6,779 bases of DNA from the IMG/VR virus record IMGVR_UViG_2703718808_000010; one strand, 5' to 3'. Positions 2,416 through 3,149 of the stretch are shown piece by piece. The notes under the pieces were generated by a model. The model searched no databases and was not told the origin of the DNA. It was given only the letters and a program-made list of their open reading frames with translations. Source of the DNA: a virus. Taxonomy: Duplodnaviria > Heunggongvirae > Uroviricota > Caudoviricetes. Made by a program: the position numbers and the translations under genes. How positions within the stretch are numbered: the first letter of the stretch is position 1; every line of letters starts with the position of its first letter.

Positions 2416-2437
2416 AATATTTATAACCCCAATAAAT

Positions 2438-2462
2438 GGCGTCAGGAATGACGCCTTTTTTA
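2438..2462 (+). terminator. Rho-independent terminator downstream of J
   Basis: Perfect 7-bp stem GGCGTCA (2438-2444) / TGACGCC (2449-2455) with loop GGAA, followed immediately by a T-run (2456-2461), 23 nt after the J stop codon. Confidence 0.7.
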
Positions 2463-2474
2463 TTGCAGAAAAGC

Positions 2475-2480
2475 GAGAGG
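2475..2480 (+). promoter_or_regulatory. Shine-Dalgarno sequence for lom
   Basis: GAGAGG lies 5 nt upstream of the ATG at 2486. Confidence 0.6.
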
Positions 2481-2485
2481 TAATT

Positions 2486-3085
2486 ATGCGTAAAGTTTGT
2501 GCAGCCATTTTGTCCGCAGCCATTTGTCTGGCCGTATCCGGTGCGCCTGCATGGGCGTCTGAACATCAGTCCACGCTGAGCGCGGGGTATCTTCATGCCC
2601 GGACCAACGTTCCCGGCAGTGATGATCTGAACGGGATTAACGTGAAATACCGTTATGAGTTTACGGATACGCTGGGGCTGGTGACGTCATTCAGCTATGC
2701 AGGAGACAAGAATCGCCAGCTGACCCGTTACAGCGATACCCGCTGGCATGAAGATTCCGTTCGTAACCGCTGGTTCAGCGTAATGGCGGGGCCGTCTGTG
2801 CGCGTGAATGAATGGTTCAGCGCGTATGCGATGGCGGGTGTGGCTTACAGCCGTGTGTCGACTTTCTCCGGGGATTATCTCCGCGTAACTGACAACAAGG
2901 GGAAAACGCACGACGTGCTGACCGGAAGTGATGACGGTCGCCACAGCAACACGTCTCTGGCGTGGGGAGCTGGCGTGCAGTTTAACCCGACCGAATCCGT
3001 GGCCATTGATATTGCTTATGAAGGCTCCGGCAGTGGCGACTGGCGCACTGACGGTTTCATCGTGGGTGTCGGTTATAAGTTCTGA
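2486..3085 (+). CDS. lom: Outer-membrane beta-barrel protein Lom (Ail/Lom/PagC family), 199 aa, with N-terminal signal peptide
   Basis: Start ATG with SD. The N-terminus MRKVCAAILSAAICLAVSGAPAWA has a hydrophobic core and an AxA-type cleavage site. The C-terminus ...DIAYEGSGSGDWRTDGFIVGVGYKF matches what I recall of lambda Lom and ends in the aromatic residue typical of outer-membrane barrels. Internal GINVKYRYE and YAMAGVA strand motifs are conserved. Position between J and stf is the same as in lambda. Confidence 0.85.
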   Translation: MRKVCAAILSAAICLAVSGAPAWASEHQSTLSAGYLHARTNVPGSDDLNGINVKYRYEFTDTLGLVTSFSYAGDKNRQLTRYSDTRWHEDSVRNRWFSVMAGPSVRVNEWFSAYAMAGVAYSRVSTFSGDYLRVTDNKGKTHDVLTGSDDGRHSNTSLAWGAGVQFNPTESVAIDIAYEGSGSGDWRTDGFIVGVGYKF

Positions 3086-3111
3086 TTAGCCAGGTAACAC
3101 AGTGTTATGAC

Positions 3112-3138
3112 AGCCCGCCGGTTCAGGCGGGCTTTTTT
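3112..3138 (+). terminator. Rho-independent terminator downstream of lom
   Basis: Stem GCCCGCC (3113-3119) / GGCGGGC (3126-3132) with loop GGTTCA, followed by TTTTTT (3133-3138). Confidence 0.7.
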
Positions 3139-3149
3139 GTGGGGTGAAT

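What the first reader, a model, noticed from the sequence alone, without database searches (positions are those of the whole stretch)
2416..3140. lom is an insulated moron cassette between two intrinsic terminators
The lom gene has a strong terminator just upstream (2438-2462) and another just downstream (3112-3138), and its own SD. Lom belongs to the Ail/Lom/PagC family; members of this family are implicated in adhesion and serum resistance, and lambda lom is reported to be expressed from the prophage. Relative to my recollection of lambda Lom, the conserved parts are the predicted beta-strands and C-terminus, whereas the segments in between (for example STLSAGYLHARTNVPGSDDLNG and RVTDNKGKTHDVLTGSDDGRHSNTS) differ. 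This is the pattern expected for surface-exposed loops under diversifying selection, and makes the gene a candidate lysogenic-conversion factor.
Basis: partly seen in the sequence, partly recalled or inferred. Interest (0 to 1): 0.45.

Follow-up and report, generated by a model that had tools for sequence, protein, structure and literature searches.

The report
Phage lom gene between two terminators
This is the well-known lom outer-membrane-protein gene of a lambda-like prophage, flanked by two real transcription terminators. It has no promoter of its own that I could find, and its surface loops show no sign of diversifying selection, so it is ordinary and already annotated elsewhere.

Summary
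Window 2486-3085 encodes a 199-aa Ail/Lom protein (Pfam 406 bits). It has a signal-peptide-like N-terminus, a predicted 8-stranded barrel (closest folds Ail and OmpX) and a good ribosome-binding site. Terminator-like hairpins lie at 2438-2464 and 3112-3138.

The same allele, with both terminators annotated, is already in GenBank for phages 434, mEp460 and Ayreon.

- **Upstream terminator.** Lom-less relatives (ev207, PhiR11_1_star) keep this hairpin between J and stf, so it belongs to the backbone. The insertion/deletion unit is SD + lom + downstream terminator (~2465-3137), with ends inside the two T-runs.
- **Promoter.** Only about 20 nt separate the upstream T-run from the ATG, and no sigma-70 promoter rises above background. 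The defining "own promoter" of a moron was not found.
- **Loops.** L1-L3 are much more variable than the strands (20-25% against 66% identity to lambda Lom). L4 is invariant. Part of the C-terminal conservation comes from a mosaic junction.
- **Selection.** dN/dS is 0.02-0.3 in every partition, and the highlighted L3 segment scores 0.11. Diversifying selection is not supported; recombinational swapping of old loop cassettes fits better.

Lysogenic conversion remains an inference from lambda.

The parts
13..2415 (+). 3' part of gene J (tail tip / host specificity protein), stop TGA at 2413-2415
   Evidence: Pfam Ig_J, Phage_Tail_Tip and Ig_GpJ_C. Annotated gpJ in E. coli UC4224.
2438..2464 (+). 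T1: intrinsic-terminator-like hairpin (7-bp stem, GGAA loop) plus TTTTTTATT. It belongs to the J-stf backbone, not to the lom cassette.
   Evidence: Compensatory covariation. Retained in lom-less phages ev207 and PhiR11_1_star. Annotated as a terminator in phages 434 and mEp460.
2465..3137 (+). The insertion/deletion unit relative to lom-less phages: SD + lom + T2 hairpin. Its ends lie within the T-runs of T1 and T2 (microhomology), so they are exact only to within a few bases.
   Evidence: The junction in L222 and L223 reads GGCGCC-TTTTTTATT-TGTGGAGTGAGTATG, compared with window 2456-2466 and 3133-3152.
2475..2481 (+). Shine-Dalgarno GAGAGGT, 5 nt upstream of the lom ATG
   Evidence: Invariant GAGAGGT/AAGAGGT in 28 distinct upstream variants. 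RBS annotated in phage 434.
2486..3085 (+). lom CDS, 199 aa, Ail/Lom family 8-stranded outer-membrane beta-barrel
   Evidence: Pfam PF06316, 406 bits. PHROG 108 'Lom outer membrane protein'. 5.5e-51 to lambda Lom PDB 9wso_C. AF2 model with 8 strands. Foldseek top hits Ail 3QRA/3QRC and OmpX 1QJ9.
2486..2557 (+). Predicted Sec signal peptide MRKVCAAILSAAICLAVSGAPAWA, with cleavage inferred after AWA
   Evidence: Two basic residues, a 14-residue hydrophobic core (mean KD 2.7), and A at -3 and -1. AF2 helix at 2-17. Aligns N-terminal to mature OmpX. No dedicated predictor was available.
2600..2629 (+). Extracellular loop L1 (aa 39-48). The most divergent segment, exchanged as alternative cassettes among alleles.
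   Evidence: Entropy 1.76, 20% identity to lambda. dS 0.8, dN/dS 0.19. Chimeric alleles P0077 and P0111.
2702..2773 (+). Extracellular part of the beta3-beta4 hairpin (L2, aa 73-96)
   Evidence: Two alternative motifs, AGDKNRQLTR and ANAEDEQKTH.
2846..2953 (+). Extracellular part of the beta5-beta6 hairpin (L3, aa 121-156). Differs from lambda but is strongly conserved within the 199-aa clade.
   Evidence: 25% identity to lambda. dN/dS 0.11-0.12.
3029..3052 (+). Loop L4 (aa 182-189, within AYEGSGSGDWRTD). Nearly invariant in all Lom alleles sampled, including a 32%-identical Phi24B Lom.
   Evidence: (dN/dS 0.01).
3112..3138 (+). T2: intrinsic-terminator-like hairpin (8 bp, 7 G-C) plus TTTTTT. 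It travels with lom.
   Evidence: Present in 183 of 211 loci. Absent from the lom-less junction. Annotated as a terminator in 434 and mEp460.
3141..3152 (+). stf ribosome-binding site (GGGGTG) and ATG start at 3150, immediately after the T2 T-run
   Evidence: Pfam phage_tail_N from residue 1. RBS annotated in phage 434.

Best explanation
The region is lom, a Sec-exported, 8-stranded Ail/Lom-family outer-membrane barrel gene. It sits inside the late tail operon of a lambdoid (phage 434-like) prophage, between J and stf.

T1 is the J-stf intergenic terminator of the backbone. The mobile unit is SD + lom + T2, joined to the backbone within the two T-runs.

Shown here: gene identity, fold class, both hairpins, covariation in T1, cassette boundaries, the absence of a recognisable promoter, the loop-versus-strand variability pattern, and purifying selection.

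Inferred from established lambda biology: during lytic growth, Q-antiterminated RNA polymerase from pR' reads through T1 and T2. Lom is then made together with the tail proteins, and stf and tfa, which lie directly behind T2, can be expressed at all. In the repressed prophage both hairpins stop unmodified polymerase. T2 keeps any lom transcript out of stf. T1 limits read-in from J. Any lysogenic lom expression must therefore come from T1 read-through or from a weak or activator-dependent promoter that overlaps or precedes T1.

The protein exposes long L2 and L3 beta-hairpins and L1 on the cell surface. These differ between allele classes mainly because old, diverged cassettes are reshuffled by recombination. 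L4 and the barrel are conserved. The cellular role (adhesion, or blocking adsorption of related phage) is inferred from lambda Lom only.
For: - Identity and fold.
- Terminators. T1 covariation.
- Same allele and architecture already annotated in phages 434 and mEp460.
- About 160 phage records carry the cassette at over 80% coverage.
- Lom-less junction keeps T1 and loses lom plus T2.
- No promoter above background.
- stf RBS abuts the T2 T-run.
- Variability by topology.
- dN/dS below 1 everywhere.
- Mosaicism.
- Literature: lom expressed in lambda lysogens and strongly in the late/lytic phase. Lambda Lom blocks lambda-vir when over-expressed.
Against: - No transcript data exist for this allele.
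- Q-dependent read-through is inferred, because Q and pR' are outside the window.
- One microarray study did not detect lom in lambda lysogens.
- My promoter scans are simple sigma-70 consensus and PWM models. They would miss activator-dependent or alternative-sigma promoters.
- The transmembrane-versus-extracellular boundaries are an approximation: the 10 residues next to each periplasmic turn of a medium-confidence model (pLDDT 75.7).
Confidence: 0.8

Rival explanations
1. One reading: lom is an autonomous moron. It would be an independently transcribed, terminator-insulated lysogenic-conversion cassette whose surface loops evolve under diversifying selection.
For: Presence/absence polymorphism at an otherwise collinear J-stf junction. 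Own SD and own terminator T2. Lom is called a moron product in the literature. Lambda lom is reported as transcribed in lysogens. Loops L1-L3 are more variable than the strands.
Against: About 20 nt lie between the T1 T-run and the ATG, which leaves no room for a promoter. The best local sigma-70 scores (5-6.5) are well inside the window-wide background of 67-69 hits per strand with score at least 4, and the consensus scan finds none. GC of lom (0.56-0.59) is not clearly distinct from stf (0.52-0.63). dN/dS is 0.01-0.32 in all partitions, and only 2-4 isolated codons show nominal excess. T1 exists without lom.
Confidence: 0.15
2. Lom is primarily a late lytic-cycle function rather than a lysogenic-conversion factor. 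One possibility is a kin-directed block to re-adsorption or superinfection of cells that are already producing phage. The terminators would simply be the silent-prophage safety stops of the late operon.
For: The gene is embedded in the late operon without a detectable promoter, behind a strong T1. Literature reports that lambda Lom rises strongly late in infection, and that it protects against lambda-vir but not T7 when expressed.
Against: The same Lom L2/L3 type is found next to at least 4 different J receptor-binding-domain types. This argues against tight Lom-J specificity matching. The L1-type association with J type is what linkage alone predicts. Lom-less phages are viable. The defence phenotype was seen only on over-expression, and of lambda Lom, which is 48% identical to this allele.
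Confidence: 0.3
3. The hairpins are not terminators. They would be mRNA processing or stability elements that set different steady-state levels of the J, lom and stf segments of one long late transcript.
For: Both lie inside an operon that must be read through. The T1 stem is maintained by compensatory change, which any structural RNA role would also explain.
Against: Both hairpins are followed directly by runs of 6 T, the canonical intrinsic-terminator signature. The T-run is invariant across 28 upstream variants. There is no Rfam match at gathering score.
Confidence: 0.07

Closest known systems
lom of phage 434 (OL657226, CPT_434_22) and of mEp460 and Ayreon
   Same: Same 199-aa allele class, about 95-97% DNA identity over J 3' end-lom-stf. 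Same T1, RBS, lom, T2, RBS, stf layout, already annotated as such.
   Different: Only point differences. The closest genome context here is a prophage of E. coli UC4224 whose tfa is interrupted by IS3.
lambda Lom (NP_040601; PDB 9wso)
   Same: Same position between J and stf. Same family, barrel and invariant L4. Same T2 and stf start (~98% DNA identity from ~3010 onward) and an analogous T1 hairpin.
   Different: 48% protein identity. Lambda is 206 aa with a longer L1. L1-L3 are 20-25% identical. Lambda T1 is weaker (6 bp with G-U, -9 kcal/mol, TTTTATTAT) and is followed by TATTAT/TATAAA -10-like hexamers that this allele lacks.
Ail (Yersinia), OmpX (E. coli), PagC/Rck
   Same: 8-stranded barrel with protruding beta-sheet. 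Best structural matches are Ail 3QRA/3QRC and OmpX 1QJ9. Sequence E about 1e-18.
   Different: 27-31% identity in the structural alignments. Lom has much longer L2 and L3 hairpins and its own invariant L4 motif YEGSGSGDWRT. It scores below the NCBIfam equivalog cut-offs for Rck/PagC-type (117 against 258 bits) and OmpX (99 against 176 bits).
Canonical morons (HK97 gene 15 type: promoter-gene-terminator)
   Same: Extra gene present in some and absent from other collinear phages, with its own terminator, located in the tail operon.
   Different: No own promoter detectable and no clear compositional contrast.

Membership tests
Ail/Lom family (Pfam PF06316) | Full-length match to the family HMM above the gathering score | tested here: met
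   406.4 bits against a cut-off of 23, covering residues 1-199 of 199. PHROG 108 at 1.2e-110.
Ail/Lom family (Pfam PF06316) | Eight-stranded antiparallel outer-membrane beta-barrel | tested here: met
   AF2 model with 8 strands, pLDDT 75.7. Foldseek top hits Ail and OmpX, E 1e-9 to 1e-10, TMt 0.62-0.67.
Ail/Lom family (Pfam PF06316) | Cleavable N-terminal Sec signal peptide | tested here: inconclusive
   n/h/c regions and the A-x-A motif are present, and a helix at 2-17 appears in the model. No dedicated signal-peptide predictor was available.
Ail/Lom family (Pfam PF06316) | C-terminal aromatic beta-signal ending in Phe | tested here: met
   The protein ends ...FIVGVGYKF. F199 is invariant in 33 homologues.
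Ail/Lom family (Pfam PF06316) | Outer-membrane localisation and adhesion or serum-resistance phenotype | not testable with these tools
   Literature for lambda Lom only.
Moron (independent transcription unit added to a phage genome) | Present in some and absent from otherwise collinear relatives | tested here: met
   ev207 and PhiR11_1_star have J-T1-stf with no lom.
Moron (independent transcription unit added to a phage genome) | Own promoter | tested here: not met
   No sigma-70 site in the consensus scan. PWM hits near lom score 5-6.5, within background. The cassette starts about 20 nt before the ATG. Non-sigma-70 or activator-dependent promoters are not excluded.
Moron (independent transcription unit added to a phage genome) | Own terminator | tested here: met
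   T2 at 3112-3138 travels with lom and is missing at the empty site.
Moron (independent transcription unit added to a phage genome) | Base composition different from neighbours | tested here: inconclusive
   lom GC is 0.56-0.59, the J 3' end 0.46-0.51 and stf 0.52-0.63.
Moron (independent transcription unit added to a phage genome) | Expressed from the repressed prophage | not testable with these tools
   Reported for lambda lom, not detected in another study. The Phi24B gene is a 32%-identical paralogue in another context.
Intrinsic (Rho-independent) terminator | G+C-rich stem-loop directly followed by a T-run | tested here: met
   T1: 7 bp plus TTTTTTATT. T2: 8 bp plus TTTTTT.
Intrinsic (Rho-independent) terminator | Structure maintained in evolution | tested here: met
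   T1: 3 of 7 pairs have double compensatory changes, 21 such cells against 6.9 +/- 2.4 in shuffles, and 94% paired against at most 55% when slid. T2 is nearly invariant, so it is uninformative.
Intrinsic (Rho-independent) terminator | Termination activity | not testable with these tools
   Needs term-seq or in vitro transcription.
Surface loops under diversifying (positive) selection | dN/dS above 1 in loops, or a cluster of positively selected loop codons | tested here: not met
   NG86 pairwise: L1 0.19, L2 0.30, L3 0.11, L4 0.01, TM 0.15. Tree-based counting: 0.22, 0.22, 0.12, 0.02, 0.17. Between clades synonymous sites are saturated, so that comparison is uninformative.

The most novel reading that the evidence does not exclude
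The lom unit is a promoterless gene-plus-terminator cassette that is gained or lost by microhomology within terminator T-runs. Its main role would be in the late lytic phase, for example a kin-directed block to re-adsorption, rather than in lysogenic conversion. Allele classes would then be generated by swapping ancient L1, L2 and L3 loop cassettes around an invariant L4.
Probability: 0.2. Interest if true: 0.4.

Novelty: already known. Interest (0 to 1): 0.12.

Why it matters
Lom is routinely listed as a prophage virulence factor or moron. For this very common E. coli allele, the sequence gives no independent promoter and no signature of diversifying selection, so it should not be scored as a lysogenic-conversion factor from sequence alone.

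The useful by-products are small. One is a precise cassette boundary: T1 belongs to the backbone, and the ends lie in the T-runs. The second is an invariant L4 motif. The third is evidence that loop diversity comes from recombination of old cassettes. None of this changes what is known about lom.

Tried and rejected
- **Rfam scan of 2300-3250 at E up to 1.** Three hits, all far below gathering score (ST7-AS1_2, STnc40, Trp_leader). I treat them as chance.
- **Sigma-70 promoter search.** I used the built-in scan and my own PWM on the J 3' end and leader of the window and of lambda. Nothing rose above background. Lambda has -10-like TATTAT/TATAAA after T1 but a poor -35 (score 4.2).
- **The 24B_1 small RNA 'downstream of lom' in Phi24B.** That lom is 32% identical, 244 aa, and sits in a different context with a 428-nt downstream spacer. 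It is not relevant here.
- **Partner of lambda Lom in PDB entry 9wso.** Searches with the J C-terminus and the Stf N-terminus did not return that entry, so the partner stays unknown. The Foldseek library did not contain 9wso.
- **Literature search for a mapped lom promoter or TSS.** I found only the statement that little is known about the lom promoter. Liu et al. 2013 and Casjens & Hendrix 2015 are not held.
- **Lom-type against J-RBD-type association.** It exists for the J-proximal L1 segment, as linkage predicts. The L2/L3 type is shared across at least 4 J types, and sampling was biased by the queries, so it is not evidence for functional matching.
- **Between-clade dN/dS.** Synonymous sites are saturated (pS 0.7-0.8), so it is uninformative.

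Full report
**What is in the window.** The 6.8-kb window is the distal tail region of a lambdoid prophage. It holds the 3' two-thirds of J (13-2415), lom (2486-3085), the side tail fibre gene stf (3150-6221) and the start of tfa. The closest complete genome is E. coli UC4224, at 99.7% over the whole window. There tfa is split by an IS3 element that begins at about window 6553.

**Checking the observation.**
One is 2438-2455 followed by TTTTTTATT. The other is 3112-3133 followed by a T-run.
- The minimal hairpins fold at -11.4 and -17.6 kcal/mol. The extended folds have z-scores of -4.4 and -2.3 against shuffles.
- The number of such sites in the whole window (8) is not above the shuffle expectation (6.2). 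The case that they are real therefore rests on comparison with other loci.
- Among 211 lom loci fetched from IMG/VR and GenBank, 209 have a hairpin plus T-run upstream and 183 have one downstream.
- The upstream stem varies in sequence but keeps pairing. Across 28 distinct variants, G-C/A-U, C-G/U-A and A-U/U-A exchanges occur at three of seven pairs. 94% of cells are paired, against 30-55% when the 3' partner is slid. There are 21 double-change cells, against 6.9 +/- 2.4 in shuffles.
- The SD GAGAGGT lies 5 nt before the ATG and is essentially invariant.

**The protein.**
- The ORF matches Pfam Ail_Lom end to end (406 bits). It also matches PHROG 108 'Lom outer membrane protein' and the deposited lambda Lom chain 9wso_C (5.5e-51).
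- An AlphaFold2 model built on 33 homologues (pLDDT 75.7) has an N-terminal helix at 2-17 followed by eight strands. The beta3-beta4 and beta5-beta6 hairpins are very long.
- Its best PDB matches are Yersinia Ail and E. coli OmpX.
- The N-terminus has the charge, hydrophobic core and A-x-A features of a Sec signal peptide. The protein ends in the OMP-typical ...GVGYKF.

**This is already known.** About 160 phage records contain the same J-lom-stf stretch at 90-98% identity. The GenBank records of phage 434, mEp460 and Ayreon annotate the two terminators flanking this lom allele. The 434 record also annotates both ribosome-binding sites. Proteins 100% identical to this Lom occur in IMG/VR contigs.

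**What the cassette really is.** I searched with an artificial J-3'/stf-5' junction. Two phages, ev207 and PhiR11_1_star, have the same J and stf but no lom. Their junction reads J stop, then AATATTTATAACCCCAATAC, then GGGCGCCAGAAATGGCGCC, then TTTTTTATT, then TGTGGAGTGAGT, then the ATG of stf.
- This is the T1-type hairpin and T-run joined directly to the sequence that follows the T2 T-run in lom-bearing phages.
- T1 is therefore the J-stf intergenic terminator of the backbone and exists without lom.
- The insertion/deletion unit is leader/SD + lom + T2 hairpin, about window 2465-3137. Its ends fall inside the two T-runs, so short T-run homology could mediate either gain or loss.
- Alleles whose upstream or downstream neighbours differ also break at or next to the hairpins.

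**Is it an independent transcription unit?** The defining feature of a moron is its own promoter. Only about 20 nt separate the T1 T-run from the lom ATG.
- The built-in scan finds no sigma-70-like site near lom.
- My PWM scan gives local scores of 5-6.5. That is inside a background of 67-69 hits per strand with score at least 4 across the window. The best upstream hit (score 8.2, at 2096) lies 390 nt inside J and would have to read through T1.
- GC content does not set lom apart clearly.
- The literature held here says only that little is known about the lom promoter. One array study did not detect lom in lysogens and others did.
- The Phi24B result, that lom is expressed independently of induction, concerns a 32%-identical, 244-aa gene. 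That gene has a 90-nt AT-rich upstream region in a podovirus context, so the result does not transfer.
- Because the stf RBS starts 2-3 nt after the T2 T-run, stf and tfa can only be expressed by polymerase that ignores both terminators. In lambda that polymerase is the Q-modified late transcription complex. This step is an inference from established lambda biology, because Q and pR' are outside the window.
- Reports that lambda Lom rises strongly late in infection fit this.

**Loop variability.** I defined transmembrane segments as the ten residues next to each periplasmic turn or terminus of the model. The rest I labelled L1-L4.
- Across 29 full-length homologues, mean column entropy is 0.64 in transmembrane segments, against 1.76, 1.46 and 1.29 in L1, L2 and L3 (Mann-Whitney p = 4e-8).
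- Identity to lambda Lom is 66% in transmembrane segments, against 20-25% in L1-L3.

Three corrections are needed:
1. L4 (YEGSGSGDWRTD) is 100% conserved. It stays conserved even in the 32%-identical Phi24B protein.
3. The conserved C-terminus is partly a mosaic artefact. DNA identity to lambda jumps from about 60% to about 98% near 3010 and stays there through T2 into stf. dS of the last 28 codons is 0.15-0.6, while elsewhere it is saturated.

**Diversifying selection.**
- I compared 136 distinct 199-aa alleles (9180 pairs). Nei-Gojobori dN/dS is 0.32 (signal peptide), 0.15 (TM), 0.19 (L1), 0.30 (L2), 0.11 (L3) and 0.01 (L4).
- Parsimony counting on an NJ tree gives 0.21, 0.17, 0.22, 0.22, 0.12 and 0.02 for the same partitions.
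- Only four scattered codons show a nominal excess (38, 65, 141, 173). Only codon 65, a conservative L/M/V toggle in a strand, is strongly significant. Recombination inflates such counts.
- dS differs strongly along the gene (0.8 in L1, 0.3 in L2, 0.125 in L3). Chimeric alleles exist, with a lambda-type N-terminus and L1 on a window-type remainder (P0077, P0111).
- L2 occurs as two discrete motifs.
- The diversity therefore looks like reshuffling of old cassettes under purifying selection. It does not look like ongoing positive selection.
- Between clades, synonymous sites are saturated, so nothing can be concluded there.

**Function.** Adhesion to epithelial cells and protection against lambda-vir on over-expression are reported for lambda Lom only. 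I looked for matching between Lom type and J receptor-binding-domain type, which a kin-exclusion role might predict.
- The J-proximal L1 type correlates with J type, as linkage alone would give.
- The same L2/L3 type sits next to at least four different J RBD types.
- This neither supports nor excludes that role.

**Verdict.** The gene and both terminators are already annotated in public records. The 'insulated moron under diversifying selection' reading is only partly right. It is a gene-plus-terminator cassette placed behind a pre-existing terminator. It has no detectable promoter, and its loops are variable but not under positive selection. Interest is low.

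Noticed in passing
window 2771-2780 / 2813-2822 (TGGTTCAGCG) and 2783-2790 / 2831-2838 (ATGGCGGG): Two pairs of short direct repeats sit 42 and 48 nt apart inside lom. They match the ends of common in-frame variants in the databases: 185-aa and 183-aa deletions and 213/215-aa duplications of VMAGPSVRVNEWFSAY (end of beta4, periplasmic turn T2, start of beta5). 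The same 16-aa deletion recurs in the diverged 207-aa clade (191-aa P0146, seen on 899 contigs). I do not know whether these are decaying genes or shortened but functional barrels.
   Followed up: partly
window 3029-3052 (Lom aa 182-189): Loop L4 and its flanks (AYEGSGSGDWRTD) are nearly invariant in all Lom alleles sampled, including Salmonella and Citrobacter ones and a 32%-identical Phi24B Lom. OmpX has an unrelated sequence there. It is a Lom-specific surface motif of unknown role.
   Followed up: partly
window ~3010-3520: There is a mosaic junction inside lom. DNA identity to lambda rises from about 60% to about 98% and stays there through T2 and the stf N-terminal domain. The lom 3' end, T2 and the stf 5' end therefore move as one module.
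   Followed up: partly
window ~6553-6779: The window ends in an IS3-family element that interrupts the tail fibre assembly gene tfa (as in E. coli UC4224). The prophage's side tail fibre assembly is probably defective.
   Followed up: partly
window 3097-3109: A small conserved inverted repeat, TAACAC-A-GTGTTA, lies between the lom stop and T2. It is identical in lambda and in most loci. No function was tested.
   Followed up: no
window 3500-4500 (stf): The central part of Stf is a long Ala/Ser/Thr-rich, highly repetitive low-complexity stretch, GC about 0.6 with strong AT skew. Long spurious ORFs occur on the other strand and in other frames.
   Followed up: no
L002 (lambda) 330-350: In lambda, but not in this allele, -10-like hexamers TATTAT/TATAAA directly follow a weaker T1 hairpin. 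A start there would give a short leader that still contains the SD. This could explain lambda-specific lysogenic expression, but the -35 is poor (PWM score 4.2).
   Followed up: partly
PDB 9wso, chain C: A solved structure containing lambda Lom (2 chains) exists in the 2026 PDB copy. Its partner chains and the associated paper could not be identified with the tools.
   Followed up: partly
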